A stretch of 64,000 bases of DNA from assembly GCA_000091205.1 (NCBI GenBank), contig AP006501.2; one strand, written 5' to 3'. The translations under genes were made by a program, and so were the position numbers. Every line of letters starts with the position of its first letter. The stretch's first letter is position 1. The notes beneath the pieces were generated by a model. It did not search any database. It was not told the origin of the DNA and saw only the letters and a program-made list of their open reading frames with translations. This document shows, piece by piece, positions 6,502 through 31,179 of this stretch. This stretch comes from Cyanidioschyzon merolae. Lineage: Eukaryota.

Positions 6502-6832
6502 TGAATCTAGGGTTTAAACTAGCCGCTTTCGTGTTCCTAGGAAAGAGTTTGTAGAAGAGTCCAACCAGCTTGCTCCGATCGTTGCAAGCAACCCGTTGGA
6601 AGCGATCTAGCTGGCGGGTCCAGGCGATTTGGCTTAGCCTGCAGCCTGCCTTTAACAACGATTAAAGGATTTGAGCACAATAAAACCTCAAGTAAAGCAC
6701 GCAAGCCTTTTCACGAAGCCGCTCACGTGGAATAGGAGTTCTGTAACAGTCTTTGCGACGATATGCACTTGCTCGAAGCGGCCGTCGCCGATCGATGGCA
6801 GGCGAGGCCGTCAACCACCCAAACCCGAGCGT

Positions 6833-9020
6833 CTCTAACATAGTCTGCTACCTCTATTATGTTCCACCGCAGGTGCGAGTCCTTTACGGCCTCTTCGCGG
6901 TTTACCGCAGATTCATTCGAAGCGCGTTCATCTTGAAGAAATACAGTATTCAAGGGGAAGGTATGCACGTAAAAGCCGAGGATCCTGGAGGACCGTCATC
7001 CCTGGCTGCCCGAAGAAAACGCAAAAAATCCTCTCATCGCCGATCATCGAGCGAAGACAAGCAAGTTACGAGGAAAAAAACAGAATAGGGGACACAGACG
7101 ATAAAAGGTGTTTGCTAGACGTGACAATGACGAGACTGTTGTGGCGCAGGGGGCGCGAGTACTTGGAATTCTTGCAATGTTGAGCTCCACCAGCGTCAAT
7201 GCACGCAAGGAGTTCGTGAATCGAGACGTGAACGCCGCCATCTATACCAAACGATGTGCGGTGCTGAAGAGGATACCCGAGGCGCTGGCGCGAGCCCGTC
7301 TTGTGAGGCAGCCTCTCAGGCTCGAGGTATACATGCAGAATCTGGAACTGATAGCAGGCGGCCGGTCAGACGAGAGAGTGAGGCGTCTGCGAGTGGGTGT
7401 CTATGTACCTATCATGGTCGTGAACCGCTGCTCGTTGTACCGACTATAAACTTAGAGCAGTGGATTCTGGAACAACTTTTCGAGGGCGCGCTTTTGTTTC
7501 GATTGCTTTTCTCGCAGGTGTTCAACCAAGCAATTGTGTACTTTAGGTTCGGGGGAAAGTCGCGAAACGTTTTGAGCTTTTTATGGCTTGCGTGCGCAAA
7601 CCGCCGTCATTCTGAACTGAAGGCAACGCAATCCGATAAAGTGCATGAATCAGCTGTCTCGTAGTGCCTGTTCCTAGAACTGCGCTCCAAAACGAGAACG
7701 TACCAGACGCCACCTACAAGCCTTGCTCGTTTTCAATCCGTTCCACTCCACAGTTCCGTTCAGAAAAAGCAGAGAAAAAACCACACGATATGAAGATTCT
7801 GTACCGTCGATACCGACGGTAATGAAGAGGCACGGGTGGACGACGCAAAAGCACGTTGCTCCGTGAGACCGTCGTACGTTGAACGAGACGCGCACACTCT
7901 CATACGCACACCCGCGATCGATTACATCATGAAAAGCGAGCGGTTACTACGGGACGGACGAGTGCTCGTCGCTCTCAATGAGACTTCATTCAGAGAAGCG
8001 TGCAGACCTGGACACGGGCGCCCTAACAGGGATCATCGATGTTCGCACACCAGGAACACGCGAGTATTCCGAAAAGATCAGCAGTAGCAGCAGCATGGAA
8101 ATCGTGTGGTCGCCTACTTTTCGCCAAACGGGCGGGATTGCCCAACAGCTCATTCGCGGTCGAGGCAGTCCCCAGGATGCAGAGCTGAAGTGGATGCCCT
8201 GCACGCTTGCTCCGGGGTGCGCCTTAGCGACCATGCGGCACATGCGGACGATATTGGGGCAGGGGCACAGCGAACCGCGCTGGGGCCGCCAACGGTTTCG
8301 GTTGTATAGGCCGAACTGGCGTGCAATCGCCTACGTGGTCAGTCAGTTGGACAAAGCATCGACAGACGTGTCGCATCGTTTGGTGGAGGACGAAGGCGCT
8401 CGACGTATTGCTGCGCGCAAAGCACGTACCCGTGTTCGTTGCGCGAGAGCGCACACCGAGTGCAGGAATCGATGCGGTACGTGCTCCCGTTGATGAGTTC
8501 AAAACGACGTATACGCATCACAAGCATGTGTGCACGCCGAAACGGGTAGAGAAGACGAATGTGAAACGGAACCTGATGCACGACGTGGTGTGCGGGAAGC
8601 GGGGCATCGTCAGGTAGCGACGAGGGTGCAGGTGAGCGGCTGGCAACGGCGTGATTCCCCGAGCAGCCACGCGTGCAAGCACATTCTGCGCGGAGACTTG
8701 GGCGTCTCAACGAGCACCCGGAAGCGTCTCGTGCTTCCGGAGCGTCCATCGGTTTTGCATGAAGCGAGCGCTCGAGGTAGTAATCGGTTCGACCTTCGCG
8801 GCGCCATGGTACTGGAACGCAGAAGGCTTGCGATGAAAAGAATCAGTGGCGGCGAGAGAGGGCTCTGGATTCCCGACTGGAGCTATGCACTGGTACGATA
8901 TGGATCAGCAATCGAGTGAGACTCGTGTACTCTCATATATACGCTGTGATTTGGATTCCCTGGCAGTTGGAGAAAGATCGTGCTGATATACTATCCGATT
9001 TTACTGCGGATATGAAGCGA
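6833..9020. repeat. Inverted-repeat arm A (~2.19 kb), near-identical inverted copy at 24630-26838
   Basis: The six-frame ORFs in 6750-8920 reappear on the opposite strand in 24730-26850: the 129-aa ORFs are identical, the 171-aa ORFs differ at 3 residues, and the 136-aa ORFs at about 4. Boundaries were set by manually aligning the flanks against the reverse complement. No convincing protein-coding content. Confidence 0.85.
7205..7420 (+). repeat. ~200-bp dispersed core repeat, copy 1 of 4 (inside arm A)
   Basis: Shares blocks with 12530-12705 (rc), 26260-26450 (rc) and 28021-28200: gagttcgtgaatcgagacgtgaacg, gtgcggtgctgaag, ctcaggctcgaggtatacatg and gatagcaggcggccgg. About 70% identity among the old copies. 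Confidence 0.7.
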
Positions 9021-11952: not shown

Positions 11953-12439
11953 CTACGTTATGAGCTGCAACGGAGGGCACGATCTCTGCTCTTCAGCAAT
12001 TGGCGCCCTAGTTTCCAGTTCCTATTTCTGCCAGAGTAACCTGCTCGTATGGGAAAGCTGGCCTCGTGAACGCGACTCGCAGGCCGGTACGCAAGATTGC
12101 TCGAGGTTGCAGGTTTTGCAGCGTGGCACTCGCGTAGGGTGCCAAATTTTTAGCTGCGTTTCGAAGGTTCCAAAGCCGACGACTAAGCGAAGCTCTCCGA
12201 CGCTCTGGCAGTTTCCAAGTACGTCAAAAAACAGCCAGCGGTCGTTCCCGTCAACAAGCATAGCAACTCGAGCACTGCGCGAGCGTTTTCATGAGCGTTT
12301 ACTAGAGCAGTAGAGCACGCTTCCAAGACTCACAGCCAGTTTTACGTAACATCGTGCTATTCAGTTGCCCGCCGCTGTGCTCGAGCCCGGACTCCACAAA
12401 ATTATCGCTCTTTACAGATTCCTTGGTTGAAGCAACCAG

Positions 12440-13893
12440 TCAATAAATAAAAATATATCGTCATTGGAACAAAAAATGTTTGTCGAACAGTGAGAGTAAA
12501 CATATAAACTCAAGCGCAGACGACTTCCAGCCATTTTTGACCGGGCACCTGCTATCGGTTTCAGCTTCTCCTTATACACTTCAAGCCTGAAAGGCAGCTT
12601 CACGAAGTTCTCTGGCGTCAGCTATGCGATTCTCGTCTTCAGCACCGCACATCGTCTGATGTTGATATCGGTTTCGAAGTCTCGGCTCACGATCTCCTTG
12701 CATACATTGCTGCTAGTTAACGTTATTTATGCAAGGGTTCCTTGAACTCGTGCCCTTTGTGCCCCTACAGTCTCGTCATCCTACTGTCGGGCAGACACCT
12801 TGCATCGCACATCTCTCATCGTCATCTTTTCCGTGGTCACTTGCTCCTCATCGCTCGATGGTCGCCAAGGAGAGAATTTTTCGCTTGTTCGTCGAACCCG
12901 CAGGCAAGGGGCCTCCAGGACCCTCCACTTCCATGTCCATAAGTTTCCTTTATACAGTATGGTCTTGAAAATGAATGCACCTCTTTATGAACTCAGGTGA
13001 GAAAATTCCTCAAGCGTGAAGCTCTTGCGTAGGAGAGACGAAATGTGCCCCAGTGTGTCGTCGTGTGCTGAAAGCTTCAGCGATTCGGCCAGCGGAGGGA
13101 TCATTACGTTTCACGATCCAAAACGGTCATTCGAAGACGTTGAATCACGGCAATTACGGAGGGATGAAAAGCTACTGTACCCAGGCAGGATCCGCAAATG
13201 CTCGAAACCAAGTCGAATTGTTAAATACCATGTTGATCAATGGAAGGACGTCGCCAGACGTCAGGAGTAAAGTCTTTAATGATTCCACAAACTTGGTGGC
13301 GCTGTTGTATGAGCCTTCTTCACTTGCGAAACTGAGGCCATCAAATGAATCCATTCCAGCTTGAACTGATGAAGATATCATCGTTCTCTTCGAGTACCTT
13401 CATGCATGCATCGGGCCCCCAGTCAGCGAATACCCATCCATGCCCCGATCGTTTTTCCGAAGAAGGTTTCATCGATTTGAAAAACATACCAATGTCTCTG
13501 TGCTTCATATCGATCGCAGCGTTCCGAGAATTCTGTCGTTGCGATTTCGGTGGAAGCTGACGTTCATTGAACTTTGACTTTCTTGTAAGCGTATCCTAGT
13601 GTTTTCAAGACTACACGAACAAACTGCTGAGTAACCGAGACGCCCGTGGAGACTTTCATCGTCCTTTTTGCTTTCCGTAAGGCGATTAACGGGACGTTTT
13701 CTACCACCGACAGCAGGCAATCTCCGAGAATATTGGTTTTTTGCCTGTAGTGTACATGCTTCTCTCCTTCCAGTGTTCCTGAACCATCTGAAACTGTGGT
13801 ATGACTGACCTGCAGAAGGAATGCAGTATTCCGTGTATTGCTCAGTAAAGAACATATACTGGGCATTTCGTCTACATTCTGTGGGGTATCTTG
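12440..13893. repeat. Repeat element B (~1.45 kb), near-identical inverted copy at 26880-28270; possible decayed Tc1/mariner-like element
   Basis: ORFs 13016-13902 recur inverted at 26912-27788: the 103-aa ORFs are identical, and the 116-aa and 93-aa ORFs differ at 1 residue. Minus-strand peptides resemble Tc1/mariner transposase pieces. The HTH-like segment KVSTGVSVTQQFVRVVLKTLGYAYKKV matches ..KVSISTVKRVL....L.G...KKP, and the C-terminal RRCAVLK segment matches RRCQAVID. Size fits Tc1/mariner. I could not find clean terminal inverted repeats or TA duplications. Confidence 0.6.
12530..12705 (-). repeat. ~200-bp dispersed core repeat, copy 2 of 4 (terminal part of element B)
   Basis: The reverse complement aligns with 7205-7420 and 28021-28200. 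Blocks gtgcggtgctgaagacgag and gatagcaggtgcccgg are conserved. Confidence 0.7.
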
Positions 13894-13908
13894 CCGGGCC
13901 ACTTCGAT
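13894..13908. repeat. Target-site duplication (left) of the LINE
   Basis: Exact 15-mer ccgggccacttcgat, also present at 18982-18996, immediately abutting the element termini. Confidence 0.8.
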
Positions 13909-14935
13909 TTTTCTTTAATCACTGACGAAATGTTTACCTAAGCCAGCGTTCTCCGATTATGCGCATTTTTCGTTTCTTAATTTTTTTGTGTTTTTTGTCA
14001 GTGTGAGGTGGGATATCCATCAACCCCCTACCTCCATGTTACATTACCTATACTTCGTCTCGGATATTCTGGTCGTTTCATGCGTCCTATCGGGTGCCGA
14101 GCCTGCCGAAAGCGACAGCAATAGCGCCTATAGCGCCGGTGCAGTCGCTGCACGGAGACAGAACGGCGTTGCCGTACCACAAAGAGCGTCTGCTCGAGGT
14201 GTGCTTCACCCGACGTAGAATCGGGTCTCGTCGTCAGTTTGTGCTCGGATAGTCTGCAAATGCAGGCTTGCCTTCGCTGCAATACACGCTGTAGAAACTT
14301 GGCTGTTAGGATATATCCTGAGAGCCGCCTCTCTCCTTCGTGATCATGCATGGAATGCGTTGTTGTCGGTTGGCAATGCGGGTTTGTGCTTGACACCCAT
14401 CACAGTGGGTAGGCACAAAGAGCACTAAACCCGTGTGCTCATCCGATTCGTTGGACCTGCTGCCTAGAAGGTAGAGTTTGAGTTTATTGGCCACTCATGA
14501 GCGCTGAGGCTCCGTTAGCGCACCATCAGTTGCCAGTGCTACACTCAGAGTGAGTGTCCGGCCTTCGACAATCACGGTGATGTCCAGCTGCTGCTGTCCT
14601 CCAAGGAACTCGCTGCGCTCCTGCTTCGAGCGCGGGCACTGTAAGCTTAAATATGTCAGCGTCTCGGGGATTTCGTCTCGATAGCAGGTACAGTGTGACT
14701 CCCAGTGCGGTTCCAGTGTTCCCGTACGGAGTAGAGCCGGTGCTGGTAGCCAGAAGCCACCAACGCGGATTTTGGCGAGCCACTGGGTACCGCGAGCAAG
14801 TCCCGGGAATTCCAGCGCCTCCCACCAGTACTTGCTTGTGTATGCTAGGTTGTAGTTCCGGTATAGAGTCAAGCCGGCGTTACTGGCGCGACTGGTACCG
14901 TGTCTACCTTCCCATATTGGCGTTCGGACCGTTCG

Positions 14936-17202
14936 CTAGAGGCGGCGGGAGCCTTGTACATTTCTGGGGAACGATTGGAGCGCATTTTCGCGTAAGAGGC
15001 GCTTTAGCCAAATCTGCGCTGATTTCATCCAAGTTTTCTTGCGGTGCGTTGGGGTCTGCATGAAAATCCGACTCAAAGGGGTGCGCATAGTGGGCCCTTT
15101 GGCCCGTATACATGCCCAGCAGCCTGCTGCTATCGCTTCTATCGAGGCTATTTGGAGTTCAAGTCCGAGTGCCAGCGGGTTGGTTGCTCTGCGCTGCATT
15201 GAGCATCCAACAACAACAACGAGTCGCATTGCCCTGTTGGCAGCTGTCTGCAGACGCGAGGCATTTGTGTGCTTCATGCCGCACCATTCAGCACCCCAGG
15301 TCGAAGGCTGGATGATACACATCCTTAGTGCCCTCGTACGGATTGCTAAGGGGATAGAGGGGTCGGATGGGAATGGGCGTGCGATCGCTGTACGTCTATG
15401 CATCTTGGCGATCATCTCGTCGACGTGAGCCTTTTCGTCGAGCGTCGGCGTGAGACAGACCCCCAGGTAGCGATATTTTTCCACGATCGGAATTTCCTGA
15501 TTCTGCAACCGCCATGAGCGATTGCGAATGCTCTGTGAGTCTCCATGGATGACCATGGCGCCGCACTTCAATGCTCCTATGTTCATAACCCAGCGATCGG
15601 CCCAGGCGCTGACTTGTTGCATGCTAGCCGCAAGCGTTTCCGGGGCGGGTGCCAACAGCACGACGTCGTCGGCAAGTAGAAGGCCTGCGAGGCGGTTTCT
15701 ATGTGAGGGCTCCTCATCGGGCATCTCCACAGTCTATCCACGGCACCTCAAGTCCGTATTGTCTGCGGTTGTTCAGCAGATCGTTGATGAAGATGTTGAA
15801 AAGGCGCGGGGATGCGCGGTCGCCCTGTCGCAGTCCACGGCGGATTCTTATCGAAGGGGTTCTTGAGCAGTCGCCCAGTCGGGTGCACATCCACGAGTCT
15901 GCATAGAGCGCACGGAAGAACGCTAAGCACTTTCCGGAGACTCCGGCACGTTCCATCTTCAGAAATGGAGCCTCGTGCGGGACCGTTTCAAAGGCCTTTT
16001 GAAAGTCGATGAAGCATACGTAAGTTGGTTGTTGGCAGCTAATGGAGCGACGTTGCACCACTTCAATGAAGGTCAGGTCATGGCTCATGTACTCCTCGCG
16101 GCTCCGGAATCCAGCCTGTTCTGGGGCGAGGAATTTGCGTTCCTCGAGGCCCCTCTGAGTCCGGTTCGTGAGGTTGGCGCAAAGTAGCTTCATGATTTAC
16201 GGGATGAGGCGCATAGTCCGGTAGATATTCATGTCTGTGGGGTTCGGAGTCCTTTTTGAGGATCGGTACGACCTCGGCAGTCCTCCATACATCTGGGATG
16301 TACGCTTCTTCGAACATGCGTTGGATGAGCTCCAGAAGGCGCTTGCCTAAGATTGTGTCAGGTTCATCTGGTATCGATAGTGTCCCTGTTGTCTCGTCTT
16401 TTGGGGTCGCCAGTTTCATCCACTCCGTAGGGATACCGTCAAAGCCAGGTGTTTTGCGGTTGCATGACCTTAAGAGGGTCCGGACAGATTCAGGCCAGAA
16501 GATTGGGTCGTTCCATACCGGTACCGGGTCGAGGCGCGGTAGTTCTGCAGCATATTGGTGCCAATAGATTGGGTCTTGGCAGTGCCCAGTTGCGTCTTCA
16601 TGCAGCTCTGTCCCGTGGTCTATCCAGGCCTCATTCACTGAGGCACTCTCCGTCCTCAGCGCTTCCTTATAAACAATTGGTGTGAGCCCCAGGCACTTTC
16701 TTGGTGGGTCCAGTCTCGATCGAATGGAGCGCCATGTCTCATCTTCGTTGGTGCTCTCCAGCATAGATTTCGCCAGGGAGGCGATTCTGCGATTTCGATC
16801 CTCCTGTTTGTCTTCTCTGGAAAGTTTCTTCTTTCTTTTGATAGCTTCCTCATGTTGTGCCTGTAGCGCCGTTAGGACTGCCTTCGCTTCCTTGTCTCCG
16901 GCGTTGGCGCGTATGGCGGTGCGGTTGACGATCTTGTTGAGTCGGTGGCATCCATCAATCTGTGCTTTTTTACGTCGTTTCAGGTACTGAGGTTTGCAAC
17001 TGTTGCGTTCTGGTGCAAGCAGTCCCAGTTCTCTGGCAATCTTCTGATTCCCATCTACATACTCGCGTGCCAATTGGTCAAAAGATTTGTATGCACGGCT
17101 TTTCGGATCTTCAACGCTGTGAGCAGGTGCCTGGGTTTGGCGACGGCTTTCTTGAGTTCCAGCTGGGGTGCCCTCTCGGGGGATACCTTGTGATGAGCTC
17201 AT
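14936..17202 (-). pseudogene. LINE ORF2 reverse-transcriptase segments (three overlapping frames)
   Basis: RT motifs are spread over three ORFs (16078-17202, 15714-16193, 14936-15730) whose ends overlap in different frames. This is consistent with frameshift mutations or assembly indels. Confidence 0.8.
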
Positions 17203-17365
17203 TTGGGAGTTCTTTTTTCTATTCTTCTGTTTTTTTCTTGCTGGTCTTTTTCTTCTTCGGGCTCTTTCCTGAGCTGCTTTCTCTGGTTATTCTTCTGGTA
17301 CGTGGATCATGATGCCAGCGTGTCTATCCTTCCGTATCGCCTTGAGTCTCTTTTCCTATTGTAGA

Positions 17366-18148
17366 TCACTCTATTGTTGTCTCTTCTTCGTTAATGTACT
17401 GATAATTCGTTATCTTTTCTCGGAAGGCTGCAAGTGACTTGTTGGTTAGTATCCGGGCTTGGTATGTTGAGGGTGCAATTGCTGGTAACCCTCGCTGTGC
17501 GCTCTGAGTCGTGTCGGCTACTGGTTCAGCATTTTGGTTCCTCGGGCGCGGGTACCATCTGCAGTGGATGGGCCAGTGATCTGAGGCATCCCAAATTCGG
17601 TCAACGGCGGTATGTTGGAGTGCCGGGTCGCATCGGTCGCTTAAGATGTGGTCTATCGATGAGCGAAGCAAACGTTGGTCGGTAATGCGGTGCCACGTCA
17701 GGGGTGAACCTCTACACGGATTCACCGACAGCAATCCGCATCTCATTCGTTGTAGGTGTTGCCTAAGGTGGCCCGCCGACATGTTAAAATCTCCCATAAT
17801 TATCATCGGTTCCTCATTCCGTGTGCGGCGTTTCAATCGCTGGATGTTGGAGGCCAACTCTTTGAGTGCCTGTCGGCGCATCTCACAGGCGTGTGGTATA
17901 TAAATGGAGCCCACAAGCCAAGGTGCAGGCTGACCTGGAATTGTAACACTCACAAAGACCATCCATGGAGACGGGTTGCCGACCGCATAGCAAGTGAGGC
18001 GTCGATCGACAGTGAGCGCAACACCACGTGTGCGTAACGAAGTTGGCTTGTCCGTAGGGTCTACGTACGTTGGTTCAACCGTGTTGTAGCCTGGGATATG
18101 CAGACGATAATACGTCTTTGTGTTCTCTGAGTGTAGTGTCTCCTGCAA
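17366..18148 (-). pseudogene. LINE ORF2 endonuclease-domain segment (frame-separated from the RT segments)
   Basis: APE-like endonuclease motifs (see the LINE feature). Stop codons and frame changes separate it from the RT segment. Confidence 0.8.
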
Positions 18149-18981
18149 TGCCAGGATATGGACGTCTCAGCGTTCCAGGAAGTACCTTACGTCGTCTAGA
18201 ATCGAGGCTACCCCCAAAAATTTTCCATGATGCGAAACCTATCGAGTCGTAGCGCGTAAGGGAATAGGAATAGCGCTGCGGTACTCGAGAGATACGTTGT
18301 CGATTGAGATGCACCCTCCACGGCGTGTGAGAACGCACATGCCACCATTGCCTCCTGCATTCCAGTCGTTCAGTGAGTGTCTGCCGCAGCGCTAGCGTAG
18401 AATCAGATGTACATTAGTCAAAGTCGATTCGAATGCGACCTTTATCTTGCCGGACGCGTGAAGCTCCCCTCAATCACTGGGGATACGCTATGAACCACCC
18501 TGTCAGCGGCTTCGTATCCGCTCCCCAAATACATAGGCGGGCAAGTCGCTTATTCCAGCTTCGATCGCGAACATACTGCCAGCCGTCTTCCAAAGTATCC
18601 GCCGAAATTGTTCCCAAAGTTGAGGTAGGTACCCAATGTAGGAGGTAAACCGGAGCCCGAGTTTAAGGATCGATCCAAGATTTGCGCCCGAACCTGCAGC
18701 GTTGATTCGGGAGGGGCGGATAACTGCTCAGAATTTTCGTCAGCTTTTTCTGCTGCTGCTGCCTCCGCCCCTCCGTTCGTTGCGGTCAAGGTCCCTGGCG
18801 TGGGCTTCCTTCGCCGTCGCCCAAGCACCCCGTGTTTACCCACTTTCAGAGCTTCTCCGGAAAAACTAGACCTCTTAAGCAGGCATGGTGTGTGGGTCTT
18901 TAAGATAGTTGTTCTTTAATAAATAGTTTGCGACTAGTTTGTTTTGTTGTTTTTTATGTACGTTACGATTTTTTTTTCATT

Positions 18982-18996
18982 CCGGGCCACTTCGAT
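18982..18996. repeat. Target-site duplication (right) of the LINE
   Basis: Exact 15-mer ccgggccacttcgat, matching 13894-13908. Confidence 0.8.
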
Positions 18997-19189
18997 CTCA
19001 AGCTATTCACCGCATCGAGGTTGAAACAAAATTCAGCTGGAAAAATATAATGCTGTAGGTGTTGCAGCCTTTTTGGCGTCCCGTCTTACGCAGCAGACTC
19101 TAGGTTGTCATAGGCTTTCGGAGGCACTCGCAGAACGAGCGTCATCTCGGTAGACAAATCAGTCTCAACTCCTCAATTTCTAGACGTGC

Positions 19190-20041
19190 ATGCTTCTGAC
19201 AAACAGCAGACAGCTGGGCTTCGTGGGGCCCGTCCACGGAAGGGGCTCACCAACGCGCTCGCTTGTCGGGCGTTTCCGGAGAGTAGGACGAACGCGCACT
19301 CCCCTTGAACGACTTGTTGCGACTCGAGAATGGGAGCGAGTGACAAATAGTCGCCAGCACCTTGTAGCTGTAGTTGCATTGGTGGCGCTTTTGTCAGGTT
19401 TTCCCGAGTGGACTGGGGGTGCAGCGTTCACGTCCACTTCGACACTTGCTAGTCAGGAGCGCGTAGAGGGCGGAGTCGTGTCGCCCGAGCGCTGGGAACT
19501 CCTTCCTGCACTAGAAGGCAAAGACTATGGGAAACCCCGTATGCGATACTCGGACTTTGTAACGTTACCTGATGGAGTACAGTATCGAGACGTGCGTATT
19601 GGCGACACGGAGATCACACCCCGCCCAGGTGACCGGGTGGTCCTCAACTGGAGTGGGTACACAATTGGTTACTATGGGCGAATTTTCGAGGCTAAAAATC
19701 GAGTACAGGGTGGCGCTTTTGGTGACGACCGCGAATATTCTCGCTACGTCCTTGGCCGAGGGGAACTCGTACCTGCTCTCGAAGAGACTCTGCTGACAAT
19801 GCATCCGGGAGGTGTTAGACAGGTGATCGTTCCGCCCGAGCGCGGGTATCCTCTAGACGGCTCGGACTGGAACCACGATCGTGTCGGACCAAAACCACGG
19901 ACCTTCAGCGGCATGCGTGCTCTCAATTTTGTGCTTGAGAACAAGGGCCTCGTAGACAAGACGCTACTGTTTAACATAGAGTTGATCCGAATTGATCGAC
20001 CTGGCGAAAACGGCTTCGAAACTGTTGGACGACGGCAATGA
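19190..20041 (+). CDS. FKBP-type peptidyl-prolyl cis-trans isomerase, probably organelle (thylakoid-lumen-type) targeted
   Basis: C-terminal ~150 aa form an FKBP domain (GDRVVLNWSGYTIGYYGRIFEAK, YVLGRGELVPALEETLLTMHPGGVRQVIVPPERGYP). The N-terminal ~110 aa are Arg/Ser-rich followed by a hydrophobic stretch (LVAVVALVALLSG), resembling a bipartite targeting sequence. The exact start is uncertain. Confidence 0.8.
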   Translation: MLLTNSRQLGFVGPVHGRGSPTRSLVGRFRRVGRTRTPLERLVATREWERVTNSRQHLVAVVALVALLSGFPEWTGGAAFTSTSTLASQERVEGGVVSPERWELLPALEGKDYGKPRMRYSDFVTLPDGVQYRDVRIGDTEITPRPGDRVVLNWSGYTIGYYGRIFEAKNRVQGGAFGDDREYSRYVLGRGELVPALEETLLTMHPGGVRQVIVPPERGYPLDGSDWNHDRVGPKPRTFSGMRALNFVLENKGLVDKTLLFNIELIRIDRPGENGFETVGRRQ

Positions 20042-20908
20042 ATGACGCACTCCACATTGAGAAAGAGACAGCTCATTGTATTCGCCTTCCATGTTCGCCG
20101 CGCCCCTCAGTTGGAAGCGATGAAGCACGGAAGCCTTCAGTGGCATCTACTTTATGGCGATTGTCAGTGAAATTGCTCAGCAGAGTTCGCCCTCGCTGTG
20201 CTGCTGTTCGTACTGGAGGCGTATACACTACCCACGAACCATATCCATGATAGCATCACTGTTTGCGTTGATCGATCATTTAGCGCATTGCAGGACTGGC
20301 ATCTCGTACTGACTAACATGCTACTGGTCCGTCTCGCACAGCGCAGCGTGAGAAAAATTCATGTCATAATGCGGGCACCTTCGGCGCCATTATGCCGCCG
20401 CCTTGTGCATTTTTGAGTACGCGCTGCATAGAATGTGAAGCGGTGCGAGCGACAGCTGGTTGAGGAAATATGCAGGGCTTTGTTCCGATCACTTTAAAGG
20501 CGACTGCAACAAAACAGAGCTCTGCATTATGGCCAAAAAAAGCGATGATCCCCCCGCAAGAAATGTTACATTCGTGAAAATTGTTCACGTTCAGGCAGGA
20601 TTCTGCTGATGGAGCTCATACGCTTTGGCGTTTGAACGAATCGGCCAAAGTGTGAGCAATGCTTGTGGAGGTGGCGCTCTAATGCGACTAAGACTTCCTA
20701 CGATGCACCGGAGGCCAGCTCTTTAACATTCAAAAACATAATCACTCTCACATCTTGACGGTTCTCCGAGAGCGTTGTGCTTTGCGCATGAGGTTTCCTG
20801 CAAGTCGCGATTATTACTACGGAATGGGTGAATCCACGAAACGAACGCTAGAGAAGTTGTGCTGGCAACACCACGAATACACAGTTTCGAAAAATGTTAA
20901 CACCAGTC

Positions 20909-22456
20909 TCACTGGTGTTTCCGAACGTCATCTATGGGCTTCCTTTCGAGCCCAAGCGTACGTAGGATAACCAATAAAATTAGCTCCTTTGCCATGGCGA
21001 ACATGATATACGGCCGGAAGAGTTGGCTCTTAGGCCGCTGGCCAGTCATGATGCGCGCCCATTCCGCCAAGAATTCATCACCTTGCTTCTCAATGCACAG
21101 CGTCGCCGCATCCAGCAGAATTGGGAAGCGATACAGAATTTGGGCGAGCCGCATGCTCGCTTTGAAGTCATAGCCAAAAGCCCGCATCCAGCGACGTTGA
21201 TAGTTGGACAGGAAACGGGCGGACAAGTCCGAATGTTTGAATGCTTCTTTGAGCACCTCTGCAGCCATCACTCCGGAATCCATTGCATGATGGATGCCCT
21301 CGCCAGTCAGGGGATCGATGAAGCCAGCAGCATCACCAACGATCAGCAAATTATCCGCATAGGATCGTGGCACACCACCCAGTCGCAAAGAGCCAGCCTT
21401 CATGGGCTCTAACTCTGCCCTGGGGCCGAGCGCTCGCGATAAATAGAAGTCCTCTTTCACGAACCCGTGATGCAGGCGGCTCAAATCATCGTTACGCACC
21501 CGCGGATTACCAGGGATGATGTAACAGCAATAGTTCAGCTCGTCGTTCACTTCCCGGAAAATAGCCATGTAGCCCGGTAACAGGTTCAGATTGTAGATCA
21601 CCGTTCCATCCGCAGCATAATTGTGTGAGCCGGCCTTCACATACGCGCGAGAGCACGTACCCTGAGGCGCCTCTTTCACAATACCAAGCTGCATTGCCAA
21701 CCTTGATGGCGCTCCATCGGCACAAACCAACACCCGAGCCTGGTAAGAGGCCTCCTCAGGAGCGCTTCCAGTTCGCTCACCGCTAATGCTCCATAAAGCC
21801 TTTCCTGTGTCGAAACGCGCGCTCTCTACACTTACCTCTTCGAGGAGATTCGCGCCAGCGTAAGCGGCTGATCTTGCCAACTTCTCGTCCAGTACGATGC
21901 GCTTTATCGCAATGACTGCAGATCGAGCCAATTTACCGGAATCACCCTCACCGACCGAGTTACCGATATAAGAATAGCCAGCGGGCGAGACGAGTCCCCC
22001 GTTCGATGCCGGGTGGCCCTTGCCTTCGCGTAGAATCTCGTCCAGTACGCTGCCTTTACCGGTCGCACTCTCCATTCTCTCCATTATATCTTGTGCCAGC
22101 GTGCACACGGCATCACCGCAGATTTTCTGGCGGGGAAACTTTTTCTTCTCTAGGAGAAGAACACGTAAGCCCGCCCGCGCACAAAAGTACGCAGTCACTG
22201 AACCGGCCGGTCCAGCGCCTACTATGCAAACATCGTAAGCATCTTTTGGCAAAGGCGGGTACGACTTGGGACTCGGCTTTACAAGAGTTGTTTCCTTTCT
22301 CCAGGTACGCAGCACCCAGAATATAGAGAGCAACGCGACAAGCACACAGCTCAGCGCTAGCAATGGTATAGGTTTTGTTGCCAGTGCCTCTAAAACTGGC
22401 TCTCGTAGTTTTGCGAAACGAGCGCCAACGCCCTGACTGAGCGCAACGAAGTACAT
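20909..22456 (-). CDS. FAD-dependent oxidoreductase of the geranylgeranyl reductase family (ChlP-like), with an N-terminal TM segment
   Basis: Dinucleotide-binding motif YDVCIVGAGPAGSVTAYFCARAG. KICGDAV matches the GGR CGG/CGD motif. LIVGDAAGFIDPLTGEGIHHAMDSG matches GDAAG..P..GEGI. N-terminal hydrophobic helix PIPLLALSCVLVALLSIFWVL. Confidence 0.7.
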   Translation of the reverse strand: MYFVALSQGVGARFAKLREPVLEALATKPIPLLALSCVLVALLSIFWVLRTWRKETTLVKPSPKSYPPLPKDAYDVCIVGAGPAGSVTAYFCARAGLRVLLLEKKKFPRQKICGDAVCTLAQDIMERMESATGKGSVLDEILREGKGHPASNGGLVSPAGYSYIGNSVGEGDSGKLARSAVIAIKRIVLDEKLARSAAYAGANLLEEVSVESARFDTGKALWSISGERTGSAPEEASYQARVLVCADGAPSRLAMQLGIVKEAPQGTCSRAYVKAGSHNYAADGTVIYNLNLLPGYMAIFREVNDELNYCCYIIPGNPRVRNDDLSRLHHGFVKEDFYLSRALGPRAELEPMKAGSLRLGGVPRSYADNLLIVGDAAGFIDPLTGEGIHHAMDSGVMAAEVLKEAFKHSDLSARFLSNYQRRWMRAFGYDFKASMRLAQILYRFPILLDAATLCIEKQGDEFLAEWARIMTGQRPKSQLFRPYIMFAMAKELILLVILRTLGLERKPIDDVRKHQ

Positions 22457-24629
22457 TTATATTCGGTTGTTGTACGAGATCAAAGCTGGGCTCTGTGCGT
22501 TCAGTTAGAGCTGACTGAATAAGTGCCTCTGCTGAGCGAAATATGCCACTGCCGTTGCAGACTCCGCGTGCAGTTCGTCCATTCGCAAATGCGTGTGAGT
22601 GTGCGTACAATGCGTACGTGCGTGTGTGCATCGCCCACAGCGACGAGCGCCAGCCGTACGAGCGCTTTGGGCCTGCGCGCCATTGCTGCGCCATTCGGTG
22701 GCTGGCTCATGATCGCCGCCGTGCGTGCAGACCTTGAGCGCACCCGCGTCGGAATAAATTGGAGAGAGGCCACGCTCCCAACTCTGGCGTAAAGAATAGA
22801 GAGTGAATCTCTTTATCAAAAAGAAGCGCATTTTCAAGCTTTTTTATGAATTCTTGATTTTTTCTCTTTTCTGTCTTGGAAAACACCGGGCTCTTTTTCC
22901 CATCTAGCTCTGTTGTCAGCAGTCGAGGGGTGTTGATGACAGCGTTCGAGTCCCAATTTTAAGGCTTTCTGATGTTGTCGACGCCGTACATTCGCAGACG
23001 GCTGTTGCGATCTAAGAGAGATCGCCATTTCGATTTCTTCGTATACGGCCTCAATGCGCCATCTGCAGCTGTGATTCTTGGTTATTTTGTGGTGTTCACG
23101 TACGTCAACTACACCTTATCTTCCTCGGGCCGCTCTGCGGCGAGATAACGTTTGCGATGTCATTCAGTGTGTGCCCCCGAGGGTAACGGCGGTTCGCCTC
23201 GATGACCTCCTCCGTATCCGCACCCGACGCCGACCTCCAGCATCACAGTCATCTTCCGGGAAATCCCACGATGGCTAAGCTGTCCGCTGGACACGCAAGC
23301 ACGCGCACCTCCATTCTTTGGAGGATTTGTGGAAAACGATTTTCTCTATGATGAAAAGAGAATCGAAAGGGAAACCCGGGTTGAGAAGCAGTCAGGATTT
23401 TTTGACAAAAGTATGCTGCATTCGTGCAAAGCGGTGATGCAATCACCGCTCGAAGCGGTCGATGCGATGAATCAAGTCCGAGCCCAAGACTCTTTCCCCG
23501 ACACACTTTAGAGATGGGAGCAAATGCGAGCATATCCCGTAAGAGGTATGACGCTCCAATGGAATGCAGTTAGGTCGATATCCATAAAATAGTAGGATTT
23601 AGGGTTCGAAAAGAAGCTTTTATTCTTCTCCTGAGATGTTCAGTGAGGTTTCGGCACGAGCATGTGATGATGTCGTCAAGCTTTCCCCTCATCTATCCAG
23701 GGTGCGACTTGTTCCGCGTACGAGCCTTCTTAAAAAAGACAGATCGAAAACATGAAGAATGCGTGATTTGCGCACGCAGAACGCAAGGGATGGTAATGAG
23801 CGGAGACTTGTTCGAATGAATTGGATAAGAATTTCAGTCATTTTACGAACCCTGCTTCGAAGGCGTCGAGAATCATCTTGATTTTCGGTAAGGTTATGAA
23901 TTCCAGCCGAAAAAGGCAAAGAAGCGACGAAGGAATGAGAAGCGAGAATCCTTAAGTTACGCATGAATGAATAGCCCTTCTTGCTGCACTTCGAATATCG
24001 ACACCGTATATCTGAGGAAAAGTTCCAAAGAGAAGTCAAGAGGGAGCAGTTCTGTTCTCCGTTTTGGTCTGATACAATTGTAAGAGCGGTGCTTGGCGAT
24101 TTCTTCGACACGACGTCGCCGAGTCCCGAGCAAGTGCCCGCTCCGCCAGAGGCACTGGTGGTTGTGTGCGCCAAACTCGACTCTTCTCGACGGACAATTC
24201 ACTGATTCTTTGGGCGTTTGCTTCCTTCAATACGCTTTTGAGGAGGCAGTATCAAACGCCCACTCCACCAGATGCATTCTGAGTTGATTGAAGAAACCTC
24301 GACTCGTCTCCAACAGTACTTTTCGGACTGCCGGGCTATCGACACATTTTCCAGAGGCATCCACTCATACTGGCATGACGCCCCAGCCGCATGCTGGCGA
24401 AGGAAATGAATGGATTTTTTCTCTGCATCTTAATCCACTAGCGCCTGTTCCCTGGGGGACCAAGACTGTAGCAGAAGGCGAAAAATTGGCCAGTGTAAAG
24501 ACTCTATTAGGTTTCCGGACAATGATCATGCAGTTAAAAAATTGCCTCGCCTTCCAGAGCACGTCTGTTGTGTACAAATTTTGTAAGCAGTTTTGGAAAC
24601 GGCTAGGGCTCACGGAAACGTTTCAGCTC

Positions 24630-26838
24630 AACCGCTCGTATATCCGCAGCAAAATCGGATAGTATATCAGCACGATCTTTCTCCAACTGCCAGGGAATCC
24701 AAATCACAGCGTATATATGAGGGTGCAAAAGTCTCACTCGATTGCTGATCCATATCGTACCAGTGCATAGCTCCAGTCGGGAATCCAGAGCCCTCTCTCG
24801 CCGCCACTGATTCTTTTCATCGCAAGCCTTCTGCGTTCCAGTACCATGGCGCCGCGAAGGTCGAACCGATTACTACCTCGAGCGCTCGCTTCATGCAAAA
24901 CCGATGGACGCTCCGGAAGCACGAGACGTTTCCGGGTGCTCGTTGAGACGCCCAAGTCTCCGCGCAGAATGTGCTTGCACGCGTGGCTGCTCGGGGAATC
25001 ACGCCGTTGCCAGCCGCTCACCTGCACCCTCGTCGCTACCTGACGATGCCCCGCTTCCCGCACACCACGTCGTGCATCAGGTTCCGTTTCACATTCATCT
25101 TCTCTACCCGTTTCAGCGTGCACACATTCTTGTGATGCGTATACGTCGTTTTGAACTCATCAACGGGAGCACGTACTGCATCGATTCCTGCACTCGGTGT
25201 GCGCTCTCGCGCAACGAACACGGGTACGTGCTTTGCGCGCAGCAATACGTCGAGCGCCTTCGTCCTCCACCAAACGATGCGACACGTCTGTCGATGCTTT
25301 GTCCAACTGACTGACCACGTAGGCGATTGCACGCCAGTTCGACCTATACAACCGAAACCGTTGGCGGCCCCAGCGCGGTTCGCTGTGCCCCTGCCCCAAG
25401 ATCGTCCGCATGTGCCGCATGGTCGCTAAGGCGCACCCCGGAGCAAGCGTGCAGGGCATCCACTTCAGCTCTGCATCCTGGGGACTGCCTCGACCGCGAA
25501 TGAGCTGTTGGGCAATCCCGCCCGTTTGGCGAAAAGTAGGCGACCACACGATTTCCATGCTGCTGCTACTGCTGATCCTTTCGGAATACTCGCGTGTTCC
25601 TGGTGTGCGAACATCGATGATCCCTGTTAGGGCGCCCGTGTCCAGGTCTGCACGCTTCTCTGAATGAAGTCTCATTGAGAGCGACGAGCACTCGTCCGTC
25701 CCGTAGTAACCGCTCGCTTTTCATGATGTAATCGATCGCGGGTGTGCGTATGAGAGTGTGCGCGTCTCGTTCAACGTACGACGGTCTCACGGAGCAACGT
25801 GCTTTTGCGTCGTCCACCCGTGCCTCTTCATTACCGTCGGTATCGACGGTACAGAATCTTCATATCGTGTGGTTTTTTCTCTGCTTTTTCTGAACGGAAC
25901 TGTGGAGTGGAACGGATTGAAAACGAGCAAGGCTTGTAGGTGGCGTCTGGTACGTTCTCGTTTTGGAGCGCAGTTCTAGGAACAGGCACTACGAGACAGC
26001 TGATTCATGCACTTTATCGGATTGCGTTGCCTTCAGTTAAGAATGACGGCGGTTTGCGCAAGCAAGCCATAAAAAGCTCAAAACGTTTCGCGACTTTCCC
26101 CCGAATCTATAGTACACAATTGCTTGGTTGAACACCTGCGAGAAAAGCAATCGAAACAAAAGCGCGCCCTCGAACAGTTGTTCCAGAATCCACTGCTCTA
26201 AGTTTATAGTCGGTACAACGAGCAGCGGTTCACGACCATGATAGGTACATAGACACCCACTCGCAGACGCCTCACTCTCTCGTCTGACCGGCCGCCTGCT
26301 ATCAGTTCCAGATTCTGCATGTATACCTCGAGCCTGAGAGGCTGCCTCACAAGACGGGCTCGCGCCAGCGCCTCGGGTATCCTCTTCAGCACCGCACATC
26401 GTTTGGTATAGATGGCGGCGTTCACGTCTCGATTCACGAACTCCTTGCGTGCATTGACGCTGGTGGAGCTCAACATTGCAAGAATTCCAAGTACTCGCGC
26501 CCCCTGCGCCACAACAGTCTCGTCATTGTCACGTCTAGCAAACACCTTTTATCGTCTGTGTCCCCTATTCTTCTTTTTTTCCTCGTAACTTGCTTGTCTT
26601 CGCTCGATGATCGGCGATGAGAGGATTTTTTGCGTTTTCTTCGGGCAGCCAGGGATGACGGTCCTCCAGGATCCTCGGCTTTTACGTGCATACCTTCCCC
26701 TTGAATACTGTATTTCTTCAAGATGAACGCGCTTCGAATGAATCTGCGGTAAACCGCGAAGAGGCCGTAAAGGACTCGCACCTGCGGTGGAACATAATAG
26801 AGGTAGCAGACTGTTAGAGACACTCGGGACTGTGCCAG
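24630..26838. repeat. Inverted-repeat arm A' (inverted copy of 6833-9020)
   Basis: See arm A. The A' end at 26838 lies only ~40 bp from the start of B' at 26880. Confidence 0.85.
26260..26450 (-). repeat. ~200-bp dispersed core repeat, copy 3 of 4 (inside arm A')
   Basis: Reverse complement of the 7205-7420 core, as part of the A/A' duplication. Confidence 0.7.
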
Positions 26839-26879
26839 ATCATATGCTTTCAATCCAATTTCGTTTCAGCCTCTGCTGC

Positions 26880-28270
26880 AGCGTATAGCAAGATATCGAA
26901 ATCACTATTGAATGAGCCCTGTAGATCGTAGTCGAATTGCCTGTAGGATATATTCTTTACTGAGCAATACACGGAATACTGCATTCCTTCTGCAGGTCAG
27001 TCATACCACAGTTTCAGATGGTTCAGGAACACTGGAAGGAGAGAAGCATGTACACTACAGGCAAAAACCAATATTCTCGGAGATTGCCTGCTGTCGGTGG
27101 TAGAAAACGTCCCGTTAATCGCCTTACGGAAAGCAAAAAGGACGATGAAAGTCTCCACGGGCGTCTCGGTTACTCAGCAGTTTGTTCGTGTAGTCTTGAA
27201 AACACTGGGATACGCTTACAAGAAAGTCAAAGTTCAATGAACGTCAGCTTCCACCGAAATCGCAACGACAGAATTCTCGGAACGCTGCGATCGATATGAA
27301 GCACAGAGACATTGGTATGTTTTTCAAATCGATGAAACCTTCTTCGGAAAAACGATCGGGGCATGGATGGGTATTCGCTGACTGGGGGCCCGATGCATGC
27401 ATGAAGGTACTCGAAGAGAACGATGATATCTTCATCAGTTCAAGCTGGAATGGATTCATTTGATGGCCTCAGTTTCGCAAGTGAAGAAGGCTCATACAAC
27501 AGCGCCACCAAGTTTGTGGAATCATTAAAGACTTTACTCCTGACGTCTGGCGACGTCCTTCCATTGATCAACATGGTATTTAACAATTCGACTTGGTTTC
27601 GAGCATTTGCGGATCCTGCCTGGGTACAGTAGCTTTTCATCCCTCCGTAATTGCCGTGATTCAACGTCTTCGAATGACCGTTTTGGATCGTGAAACGTAA
27701 TGATCCCTCCGCTGGCCGAATCGCTGAAGCTTTCAGCACACGACGACACACTGGGGCACATTTCGTCTCTCCTACGCAAGAGCTTCACGCTTGAGGAATT
27801 TTCTCACCTGAGTTCATAAAGAATTGTGCTCATTTGAAAATATGTAAAACCCAGGAGACGAGCTGGGGGTGTACAGTTTTGAGGTGGAAATGGAAAAAGA
27901 GCCAGCGGAGCGTTTTAGCGATAGCGAAGCATGGGGAGCTGACGGAGCACCGAATGTCACGTAGGGCACGAGTTCGAGGACTACTTTCTCTGGTGATTTC
28001 CTCCAGCGGCAATTTACGCACTGAGTTCGTGAGCCGAAACTTCAACGTCGCTATCAATATCAGGAGATATGCGGTGCTGAAGACGAGCCCCCAAGACCTG
28101 ACGAAATCTACCTTGGTATTGTAGCCTCTCAGGCTCGAAGTCTACATGGAAAAAGTGACACCATTATCAGGAAGCCGATCACGTTAAGGCGGAGAGGTGT
28201 TTGTGCATAGGCATTAATTTAACGTAAACGGCGGGAATTTTTTTGTTCCATTGAACGTGTATGCGTGTGC
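26880..28270. repeat. Repeat element B' (inverted copy of 12440-13893)
   Basis: See element B. Terminal homology: tttttgttccattgaacg (about 28245) matches tttttgttccaatgacg in the reverse complement of about 12460. Confidence 0.6.
28021..28200 (+). repeat. ~200-bp dispersed core repeat, copy 4 of 4 (terminal part of element B')
   Basis: Aligns with 7205-7420 (gagttcgtgagccgaaac..gcggtgctgaagacgag..ctcaggctcgaagtctacatgg). Confidence 0.7.
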
Positions 28271-28456
28271 GTTTTTTCAGGATCTGGCTGTGTTTCTTTA
28301 ACCAGCTCAGCATTCAGCGTCTCGGTTAGTATTGGGTGCCTTGTCTTGTTAGCGGTAGCGCACAGGGCTTAAAGTGGACAGAAACAGCCACAAGGCGGAC
28401 TAAGGAATAGAACAACCAGAGAGCGTTCTTGCACAGCTTGTGCTAGGGAGGACTCG

Positions 28457-30820: not shown

Positions 30821-31179
30821 AATTTTGAATAGTTTGTTCCATACGGCGAAATTTGAATGCTCGCGAGGAATGAGTCGATAGACTCGTGTTGCTGATTTCA
30901 TTGCTATCCTGAATAGACAAAGCATGCTAATCGGAGCACCATCCCCTGGTCCTCCATCGCCTAGAGCTCAGTCTGTCGATGATGCAACGAAAAATGCATC
31001 GTCATTTCCATGTGTCAATGTGCTTATCAGGCTTATTAGAAATAGATGCCCACGAACGAGGACATATGCTATTGAAGCTTAGTAGGAGCAGTTCCCATCG
31101 CCCGTGGCAGTGTCCTTGTTAGCCTTGATAAGAGCATATGCTCAAGGCCGGTGCTAGCAGTTCAACGCTGACTCGTTCT

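What the first reader, a model, noticed from the sequence alone, without database searches (positions are those of the whole stretch)
12440..28270. Second inverted pair (B/B', ~1.45 kb, ~99.5% identity) carrying Tc1/mariner-like peptide remnants and arranged in circularly permuted order relative to A/A'
12440-13893 recurs inverted at 26880-28270: the 103-aa ORF is identical and the 116-aa and 93-aa ORFs differ at 1 residue. Minus-strand translations contain a segment resembling the second HTH of Tc1/mariner transposases (KVSTGVSVTQQFVRVVLKTLGYAYKKV versus KVSISTVKRVL..NLKG..ARKKP). They also contain a C-terminal-like RRCAVLK segment (Tc1 family MPRRCQAVIDAKG), and the size fits a Tc1/mariner element. 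I could not find clean TIRs or TA duplications.
On the right, A' and B' are contiguous (gap of about 40 bp at 26838-26880). On the left, A and B are 3.4 kb apart and in the opposite relative order. Read in the left orientation, the right-hand junction is B followed by A (B-then-A), whereas the left has A-gap-B. This is not a simple palindromic duplication. It suggests either an ancestral tandem A-B-A-B unit or independent paired transpositions.
Basis: partly seen in the sequence, partly recalled or inferred. Interest (0 to 1): 0.55.

Follow-up and report, generated by a model that had tools for sequence, protein, structure and literature searches.

The report
Dead transposase duplicated among Fanzor relics

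Summary
The window is Cyanidioschyzon merolae 10D nuclear DNA. The inverted pair is real but smaller than reported. Only 12969-13875 and 26928-27835 (907 nt) are near-identical. The 870-nt core differs by one SNP and one indel; the other differences cluster at the two edges.

The rest of the "1.45 kb" is only about 70% alike. It consists of independent old fragments of the known Fanzor1 element CMe-1A.

The core is a transposase pseudogene of the IS630/Tc1-mariner superfamily. After joining two reading frames it matches NCBIfam NF033545 at E=1.4e-8. It carries one frameshift and seven in-frame stops, and its second catalytic Asp is now Asn.

The "RRCAVLK Tc1 C-terminus" is actually the C-terminus of Fanzor1 (NRDFNAAINIRRCAVLEK).

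I found no terminal inverted repeats and no TA duplications. The copy boundaries do not coincide with element ends.

A/A' is also made of Fanzor debris, and a third copy lies near gene CMS092C.

The two B clusters sit at the ends of two blocks of gene order shared with Cyanidiococcus. They flank FKBP and GGR (a geranylgeranyl-reductase-like gene), which are inverted relative to that outgroup.

The best reading is DNA-level duplication or ectopic recombination between transposon-rich spacers, not transposition. Interest is low.

The parts
12969..13875 (-). B core. A pseudogene of an IS630/Tc1-mariner-type DDE transposase, read on the minus strand (start codon about 13866, frame ends about 12990). 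It has one frameshift and seven in-frame stops. The motifs are IDETFFGK (first Asp), NMVFNNSTW (second Asp now Asn) and LFIPP*LP*FNVFE* (PPYSPxLNPxE-like).
26928..27835 (+). B' core, the inverted copy of B. The same pseudogene is read on the plus strand, with an extra 1-nt indel at 27062. Differences from B cluster at 26932-26952 and 27823-27829.
12493..12980 (-). Old internally deleted CMe-1A (Fanzor1) fragment just downstream of the B transposase on the same strand. It covers consensus 871-969 plus 2841-3108, and keeps the Fanzor start (MDMEVEGPGGP...) and C-terminus (SRDFETDINIRRCAVLK...).
   Evidence: It is 67-69% identical to the fragment at the start of A.
27860..28203 (+). Old CMe-1A fragment (consensus 2739-3083; Fanzor residues 614-723) just downstream of the B' transposase on the same strand. 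It is about 72% identical to 12493-12756.
13905..14479 (+). Fragment of the 5' non-coding part of CMe-1A, of TE-N2_CMe type (consensus about -40 to 540). It lies head-to-head with the 5' end of the B transposase. Part of it (13905-14177) is 89% identical to 51757-52030.
26829..26927 (.). Unique 99-nt spacer between A' and B'. It has no other copy in the window and no similarity to CMe-1A.
   Evidence: Present in independent contigs L041, L057-L063.
6824..9013 (+). A, a composite of Fanzor debris. 6840-7390 is the same kind of internally deleted CMe-1A (consensus 787-1070 plus 2842-3084). 8254-8757 is a more distant Fanzor1-like C-terminal region (27% identity to CMe-1 residues 523-692). It sits in the eIF3e-Tim17 spacer, which measures 1.4 kb in Cyanidiococcus.
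24640..26828 (-). A', the inverted copy of A. It is 98.95% identical, with 23 differences spread along its length and sharp boundaries.

Best explanation
**What the sequences are (shown)**
- B/B' is a young inverted duplicate of about 0.9 kb. It consists almost exactly of a dead transposase gene of the IS630/Tc1-mariner superfamily.
- In both copies the pseudogene is followed, on the same strand, by an old fragment of the Fanzor1 element CMe-1A. It is a different fragment in each copy.
- A/A' is also made of CMe-1A-type debris.
- Nothing here is functional or currently mobile.

**How the copies arose (inferred)**
- The near-identical copies came from DNA-level copying between transposon-rich intergenic spacers, not from cut-and-paste transposition. 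Possible routes are non-allelic homologous recombination, gene conversion, or template switching during replication or repair.
- The clusters lie at the ends of two blocks of gene order conserved with Cyanidiococcus. They flank a segment whose FKBP and GGR genes are inverted relative to that outgroup.
- The repeats therefore mark an evolutionary inversion or rearrangement. They either mediated it or were generated by it.
For: **Source organism**
- Exact matches to C. merolae 10D proteins BAM82739, BAM82743, BAM82744 and BAM82746 on a 1,282,939-bp record.

**Transposase homology**
- NF033545 at E=1.4e-8 and 34.6 bits for the two-frame join. Frame 0 alone gives E=5.6e-4, and controls are empty.
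- Pfam DDE_3 improves from 12.8 to 19.6 bits on joining the frames. HTH_Tnp_Tc3_2 gives E=0.044.

**Fanzor identity of the flanks and of A**
- blastn and tblastn against the published CMe-1A consensus and CMe-1 protein (PMC3627910 supplements).

**Against transposition**
- No terminal inverted repeats.
- The B boundary on one side lies at the transposase start codon. On the other side it lies about 35 nt inside CMe-1-homologous sequence.
- Differences between B and B' cluster at the edges, as at the ends of a conversion or recombination tract.
- A third A copy next to CMS092C ends 26 nt earlier than A and A'.
- No other transposase copies were found in the window or in a 5.8-billion-protein search.

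**Breakpoint context**
- Gene order MTase-PCNA-eIF3e-Tim17-135aa is conserved up to window position 11748. Gene order ORC1 to ALG10 is conserved from 28457.
- The outgroup has GGR(+)-FKBP(-)-ORC1(+). Here the order is FKBP(+)-GGR(-)-[A', spacer, B', Fanzor fragment]-ORC1(+).
Against: - The frame join in the transposase was chosen by eye, and the score is far below the NCBIfam curated cut-off of 100 bits.
- I could not census the whole 10D genome, so further B copies with proper ends cannot be excluded.
- A has at least three copies at 97-99.6% identity with sharp ends. Some form of mobility for A is therefore not excluded.
- The left end of the outgroup inversion could not be mapped, so the link between the repeats and the inversion rests on position only.
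- The precise duplication mechanism is not resolved.
Confidence: 0.7

Rival explanations
1. B plus the adjacent Fanzor fragment is the relic of one composite transposon, with a Mariner/IS630 transposase followed by Fanzor1 as in Pythium PUl-1. Two old copies decayed independently, and the transposase part was later homogenised by gene conversion between the inverted copies.
For: - In both copies the transposase is directly upstream of CMe-1 sequence on the same strand. In the left copy the frame ends about 45 nt before the Fanzor ATG.
- Both copies include the same short stretch homologous to consensus about 845-880 before they diverge.
- PUl-1 and PGv-1 have this layout (PMC3627910).
- Differences clustered at the edges fit a conversion tract.
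Against: - The shared junction lies inside the young duplicated tract, so it is not independent evidence.
- The CMe-1A consensus has no trace of the transposase.
- There are no terminal inverted repeats or TA duplications.
- Similarity to the PUl-1 transposase is not significant (E=0.19; tblastn negative).
- No older diverged transposase copies were seen.
- The Fanzor fragments are about 70% alike, which is poor substrate for starting conversion.
- CMe-1 debris is dense here, so adjacency may be chance.
Confidence: 0.18
2. B and A are non-autonomous elements that transposed recently and independently into both places.
For: - The copies are 98.5-99.8% identical, far younger than the CMe-1A family (about 80% to its consensus, PMC3627910).
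- A occurs in at least three contexts.
- A is an insertion relative to the Cyanidiococcus eIF3e-Tim17 spacer.
Against: - No terminal repeats, no target duplications, and no intact transposase were found.
- The B ends fall at a start codon and inside another element.
- The right ends of the A copies differ by 26 nt.
- All copies lie in one neighbourhood of one chromosome. CMS092C is BAM82731 and eIF3e is BAM82739.
- The only contig placing B at a distant locus (L033, next to DNA polymerase alpha) switches sequence type inside a 40-nt stretch shared with an old solo fragment. It may be an assembly chimera.
Confidence: 0.07
3. The arrangement is an assembly artefact of the reference sequence.
For: - Short-read contigs show all four possible flank combinations around B.
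- They also show recombinant paths through A (L056, L011).
Against: - Every junction of the reference arrangement is found in independent contigs (L012, L032, L035, L041, L057, L059, L061, L062).
- The reference is the finished 10D genome (PMC1955436).
- The recombinant contigs are explained by collapse of an 870-nt identical core. L031 and L032, from one assembly, are 100% identical over 1607 nt before taking different exits.
Confidence: 0.03

Closest known systems
IS630 / Tc1 / mariner superfamily DDE transposases (NCBIfam NF033545; Pfam DDE_3, HTH_Tnp_Tc3_2)
   Same: The HTH followed by the DDE region match the profile in the same order. Recognisable motifs surround the three catalytic positions. 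The conceptual product is about 300 aa.
   Different: - It is a pseudogene, with one frameshift, seven stops and the second Asp changed to Asn.
- It has no terminal inverted repeats and no TA duplication.
- It scores below the curated cut-offs.
- No close intact relative was found.
- It cannot be assigned to a bacterial-type IS630 or a eukaryotic Tc1 subgroup. Nozaki et al. 2007 (PMC1955436) mention eight bacterial-like transposase relics in this genome; this may be one of them, but I could not check.
CMe-1A Fanzor1 element and TE-N2_CMe of C. merolae (Bao & Jurka 2013, PMC3627910)
   Same: The flanks of B and B', the start of A, and the 13905-14479 segment align to the published consensus and protein. 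This includes the NRD...NAA...RRCAVL C-terminus. Like the family, they show no terminal inverted repeats.
   Different: All copies here are fragments or internal-deletion derivatives, 62-76% identical to the consensus. None encodes an intact Fanzor.
Composite Mariner-Fanzor1 transposons PUl-1 and PGv-1 (PMC3627910)
   Same: The order and orientation match: transposase first, then Fanzor1 on the same strand a short distance downstream.
   Different: PUl-1 has 24-nt terminal inverted repeats and TA duplications, and both of its ORFs are intact. Here there are no ends and both genes are dead. The two transposases are not detectably closer to each other than to the superfamily in general.
Inverted duplications and transposon copies at inversion breakpoints, arising by ectopic recombination, staggered breaks or replication template switching (general knowledge, not tested against a specific paper)
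   Same: Inverted near-identical copies flank a segment that is inverted relative to an outgroup. The right-hand block is a patchwork of two non-adjacent left-hand segments joined by 99 nt of filler.
   Different: The simple staggered-break model predicts that A and B are adjacent on the left as well, but 3.95 kb including the Tim17 gene separates them. The second breakpoint in the outgroup was not mapped.

Membership tests
Tc1/mariner-IS630 transposon | DDE/D catalytic transposase domain | tested here: met
   NF033545 E=1.4e-8 and DDE_3 E=8.9e-4 on a two-frame join; controls negative. This shows homology only. The second Asp reads Asn and the ORF is broken.
Tc1/mariner-IS630 transposon | N-terminal paired helix-turn-helix DNA-binding region | tested here: inconclusive
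   HTH_Tnp_Tc3_2 E=0.044 on ORF 13564-13902(-). The IS630 profile alignment starts at profile position 79, so only the second HTH is covered.
Tc1/mariner-IS630 transposon | Terminal inverted repeats | tested here: not met
   An inverted-repeat search of 12300-14000 and 26800-28400 with 8-nt seeds found only short internal chance-level pairs.
Tc1/mariner-IS630 transposon | TA target-site duplication | tested here: not met
   Identity decays gradually at both B edges and no defined termini exist. No TA-flanked unit can be drawn.
Tc1/mariner-IS630 transposon | Multiple dispersed copies with identical ends | not testable with these tools
   The whole C. merolae genome could not be searched. There are only two copies in the window. 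One further context (L033) is possibly chimeric. A protein search found only self-matches.
Fanzor1 element CMe-1A / TE-N2_CMe | Sequence similarity to the published consensus DNA and CMe-1 protein | tested here: met
   blastn E from 1e-13 to 3e-48 and tblastn E from 1e-17 to 4e-26 for 6840-7390, 12493-12980, 14027-14479 and 27860-28203.
Fanzor1 element CMe-1A / TE-N2_CMe | C-terminal RuvC 'RD' motif of the D...[TS][TS]..zinc finger..RD signature | tested here: met
   FVNRDVNAAIY at about 7210-7240 and IVSRDFETDIN in 12493-12756 align to consensus FVNRDFNAAIN. The upstream Asp and zinc finger are deleted in these fragments.
Fanzor1 element CMe-1A / TE-N2_CMe | Intact Fanzor ORF (functional RNA-guided nuclease) | tested here: not met
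   All copies in 6.8-28.3 kb are fragments with internal deletions, frameshifts and stops.
Composite Mariner-Fanzor1 element (PUl-1 type) | Transposase and Fanzor1 co-oriented inside one pair of terminal inverted repeats with TA duplications | tested here: not met
   Co-orientation and adjacency are met. Terminal repeats and TA duplications are absent. The transposase is absent from the CMe-1A consensus.

The most novel reading that the evidence does not exclude
The B transposase may be the last relic of the autonomous Mariner/IS630-type partner that once carried or mobilised the CMe-1 Fanzor1 family. Its transposon class has been 'unknown' since 2013. That would make CMe-1 a decayed Mariner-Fanzor composite like PUl-1 of oomycetes. 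Separately, the interleaved inverted repeats A/A' and B/B' might still flip the 13-15 kb segment between them in natural populations.
Probability: 0.18. Interest if true: 0.45.

Novelty: new member of a known kind. Interest (0 to 1): 0.22.

Why it matters
Mostly it does not. These are dead transposon fragments in a finished, well-studied genome. The Fanzor family involved was described in 2013.

Three modest points of value remain.

1. It corrects a tempting misreading. A Fanzor1 C-terminus looks like a Tc1 C-terminus to the eye.
2. It documents a transposase pseudogene directly upstream of Fanzor1 sequence in a genome where the Fanzor element has no assigned transposase. This is a lead for classifying CMe-1.
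3. It shows that young inverted copies of transposon debris sit exactly at the ends of synteny blocks shared by Cyanidioschyzon and Cyanidiococcus, around an inverted gene pair. This is a concrete example of repeat-associated rearrangement in an extremely repeat-poor eukaryote.

Tried and rejected
**Transposase identity**
- Rfam and tRNA scans of the window found nothing.
- Pfam scans of single reading frames of B and of the three plus-strand frames of A gave only a weak DDE_3 hit, E=0.11.
- tblastn and BLASTP with the PUl-1 Mariner transposase were not significant.
- phmmer of the joined transposase against PDB sequences gave no hits.
- The k-mer-prefiltered search of 5.8 billion proteins returned only a self-match.
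- Longer 'proteins' P0030 and P0032 (302-305 aa) in the same cluster are not intact genes. They are read-throughs with TGA translated as Trp.

**My own wrong turn**
- I first read 'NRDVNAA' as a Fanzor C-terminus, then briefly took the fragment for an N-terminal region only. The published protein shows the fragment is an internal-deletion derivative that holds both ends.

**Copy census**
- A metagenome scan for the A'-B' spacer found 0 hits. That collection holds only 4 contigs with B, so the zero is uninformative. The spacer was later found in other assemblies.

**Inversion polymorphism**
- I tried to infer it from contigs. All four flank combinations occur, but collapse of the identical core explains them.

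**Origin models**
- The staggered-break inversion model does not fit, because 3.95 kb lies between A and B on the left.

**Outgroup PCNA**
- The 98% protein identity of PCNA to the outgroup looked odd. DNA identity is 80%, so it reflects purifying selection only.
Full report
**Source and setting**

The long ORFs of the window are exact matches to Cyanidioschyzon merolae strain 10D proteins. They are eIF3e BAM82739, a geranylgeranyl-reductase-like protein (GGR) BAM82743, ORC1 BAM82744 and RPA2 BAM82746, on a record of 1,282,939 bp. The genome is nearly intron-free, so long ORFs are genes. The many short overlapping ORFs in 6.8-14.5 kb and 24.6-28.3 kb are not.

**Checking the observation**

Self-comparison gives two inverted pairs.

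- A is 6824-9013 against 26828-24640: 2191 columns, 98.95% identical.
- B is 12969-13875 against 27835-26928: 909 columns, 98.5% identical.

B is therefore about 0.9 kb, not 1.45 kb.

- Beyond 12969 and 27835 the two sides align only at about 70%, with many gaps.
- Inside B the differences are not evenly spread. Seven fall in the first 25 nt and five in the last 12 nt. The 870-nt core has one SNP and one 1-nt indel.
- A and A' differ at 23 positions spread along the whole length, and their boundaries are sharp.
- The spacer between A' and B' is 99 nt (26829-26927), is unique in the window, and is unrelated to the Fanzor consensus.

**What the flanks and A are**

The literature search led to Bao & Jurka 2013 (PMC3627910). 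They describe CMe-1A, a Fanzor1 element of C. merolae. It is 3169 bp long and has about 150 copies, each about 80% identical to the consensus. It has no terminal inverted repeats and its class is unknown. Its 5' 635 bp equals TE-N2_CMe.

I took the consensus and the 734-aa protein from the supplements and compared them with the window.

- The diverged repeat seen at 6840-7390(+), 12493-12980(-) and 26263-26801(-) is an internally deleted CMe-1A. It keeps consensus about 787-1070 (the Fanzor start, M..EDPGGP...KRK) joined to about 2842-3108 (the Fanzor C-terminus).
- 27860-28203(+) is a different fragment, consensus 2739-3083.
- 14027-14479(+) is the 5' non-coding part, consensus 84-540. Similarity to a second copy at 51757 starts at 13905.
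- A also contains a more distant Fanzor-like C-terminal region at 8254-8757 (27% identity, E about 1e-5).
That is the RuvC 'RD' region at the Fanzor1 C-terminus, not a Tc1 C-terminus.

**What B is**

On the minus strand, B reads as follows.

- Then come ...YVFQIDETFFGK, a frameshift...LINMVFNNSTW... and LFIPP*LP*FNVFE*PFWIVKR.
- This has the shape of the three catalytic regions of IS630/Tc1-type transposases, with the second Asp now Asn.

The statistical support is this.

- Single frames give only weak profile hits: DDE_3 at E=0.11 and NF033545 at E=5.6e-4 for frame 0.
- Joining the two frames raises DDE_3 to E=8.9e-4.
- The join gives NCBIfam 'IS630 family transposase' at E=1.4e-8 and 34.6 bits, over profile positions 79-274 of 299.
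- Reversed and shuffled versions hit nothing.

Homology to the superfamily is therefore established. The join was chosen by eye, and the score is well below the curated cut-off for family membership. The gene is dead, with one frameshift and seven stops; B' has one more indel.

Searches for relatives found little.

- No relative other than itself was found among 5.8 billion proteins.
- Nothing was found in PDB sequences.
- The longer cluster members are TGA read-throughs.
- There are no other copies in the window and no trace in the CMe-1A consensus.
- Similarity to the Mariner transposase of the Fanzor-carrying element PUl-1 is not significant.

**Element ends**

- No terminal inverted repeats were found between the ends of either unit.
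- On the transposase 5' side, identity fades at the start codon.
- On the 3' side, identity ends about 35 nt into sequence homologous to CMe-1A consensus about 845-880. After that the left copy continues into the Fanzor start, and the right copy jumps to consensus about 2739.
- These are not transposon termini.

**Other copies and population data**

Exact-protein look-ups retrieved metagenome and Logan contigs 99-99.9% identical to the window.

- They confirm every junction of the reference arrangement.
- They also show recombinant paths.
  - The right flank of B joined through B to the right-hand Fanzor fragment and ORC1 (L031, L034, L036).
  - The spacer joined through B to the left-hand Fanzor fragment (L058, L060).
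  - The Tim17 side joined through A to the spacer and B' (L056).
- The switch always lies inside the identical core. Two contigs of one assembly are 100% identical over 1607 nt before taking different exits.
- Repeat collapse is therefore a sufficient explanation, and an inversion polymorphism is neither shown nor excluded.
- A third copy of the right end of A lies next to CMS092C (BAM82731), a few genes upstream on the same chromosome. It appears in five contigs, has its own substitutions, and ends 26 nt before the A/A' boundary.
- One contig puts B next to DNA polymerase alpha. It changes from the local type to the window type within a 40-nt stretch shared with an old solo fragment at that locus. 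It is either a chimera or a single ectopic exchange.

**Outgroup**

I compared the locus with Cyanidiococcus yangmingshanensis.

- The order MTase-PCNA-eIF3e-Tim17-135aa is conserved, matching window 252-11748.
- The eIF3e-Tim17 spacer measures 1.4 kb there, against about 3.2 kb here with A inside it.
- The order ORC1-182aa-RPA2-Myb-SecE-ALG10 is conserved, matching 28457-42050.
- Directly left of ORC1 the outgroup has GGR(+)-FKBP(-). C. merolae has FKBP(+)-GGR(-), then A', the spacer, B' and the Fanzor fragment.
- The FKBP-GGR pair is therefore inverted, and one breakpoint coincides with the A'-B' block.
- The left synteny block ends between 11748 and the cluster made of the left Fanzor fragment, B and the 13905-14479 segment.
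- Neither outgroup locus contains Fanzor or transposase sequence.
- The other breakpoint in the outgroup was not mapped.

**Explanation**

What is shown:

- B is a transposase pseudogene.
- The flanks of B, and A itself, are CMe-1A debris.
- The copies are young relative to the family.
- There are no transposon ends.
- The clusters sit at synteny-block ends around an inverted gene pair.

What is inferred:

- The young copies arose by DNA-level duplication or ectopic recombination between transposon-rich spacers.
- The right-hand block is a patchwork of two non-adjacent left-hand segments plus 99 nt of filler. This is what template switching or successive conversions would give.
- A simple staggered-break inversion does not fit, because 3.95 kb with the Tim17 gene separates A and B on the left.
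- I cannot tell whether the repeats caused the inversion or were made by it.

**Rival worth keeping**

The transposase may once have belonged with the Fanzor gene in one composite element, as in PUl-1. The layout fits. The only junction lies inside the young tract, however, and no other support was found. I give this about 0.18.

**Verdict**

The finding is ordinary transposon debris with a modest structural-evolution angle.

Noticed in passing
window 51757-53512 and 55311-55852: A much larger CMe-1A copy on the plus strand. It covers consensus 60-245 and then 794-2250 at 76%. The Fanzor protein region (residues 19-442) is 52-63% identical, and residues 499-660 are 33% identical. It is not intact.
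   Followed up: partly
window 6840-7390 and 12493-12980: Two old copies (about 68% alike) share the same internal deletion of CMe-1A. Roughly, the first ~55 codons are joined to the last ~85 codons plus the 3' end. This looks like a short non-autonomous subfamily. The retained 3' part is where the guide RNA lies in characterised Fanzor/TnpB systems; I did not test this.
   Followed up: partly
L011 1-7450, L018, L045, L051, L052 (not in the window): A third copy of the right end of A lies about 530 nt from gene CMS092C (BAM82731), on the same chromosome a few genes upstream of the window. It ends at the position equivalent to 8987, 26 nt before the A/A' boundary.
   Followed up: partly
L033 5560-5900 versus L053-L055: An old solo TE-N2-like fragment (about 230 nt, 90% identical to 13923-14152) lies upstream of the DNA polymerase alpha gene. 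One contig continues from it into window-type sequence and B. The switch falls inside a 40-nt shared stretch, so it is either an assembly chimera or an ectopic exchange.
   Followed up: yes
window 31937-32394 (arms 32023-32133 and 32197-32307): A roughly 460-nt imperfect palindrome (arms 78% complementary, 63 nt apart) in the spacer before RPA2. It has no similarity to CMe-1A.
   Followed up: no
L021 4172-4854 versus window 18271-18953: One metagenome contig leaves the reference order at about 18384. It continues with an inverted 88.6%-identical copy of 18271-18953 and then a GlmS-like gene that is absent from the window. Other contigs (L022, L024-L026, L029) follow the reference there.
   Followed up: no
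proteins P0030 and P0032 (Logan assemblies), equivalent to window 13902-12990 minus strand, frame 0: Public gene calls of 302-305 aa for this locus are artefacts of translating TGA as Trp. All in-frame stops of that frame are TGA. JGI annotation already labels the 100-112-aa ORF 'transposase'.
   Followed up: yes
window 23737-23904 and 44924-45093: A weak direct repeat (68% over about 170 nt) of unknown nature.
   Followed up: no
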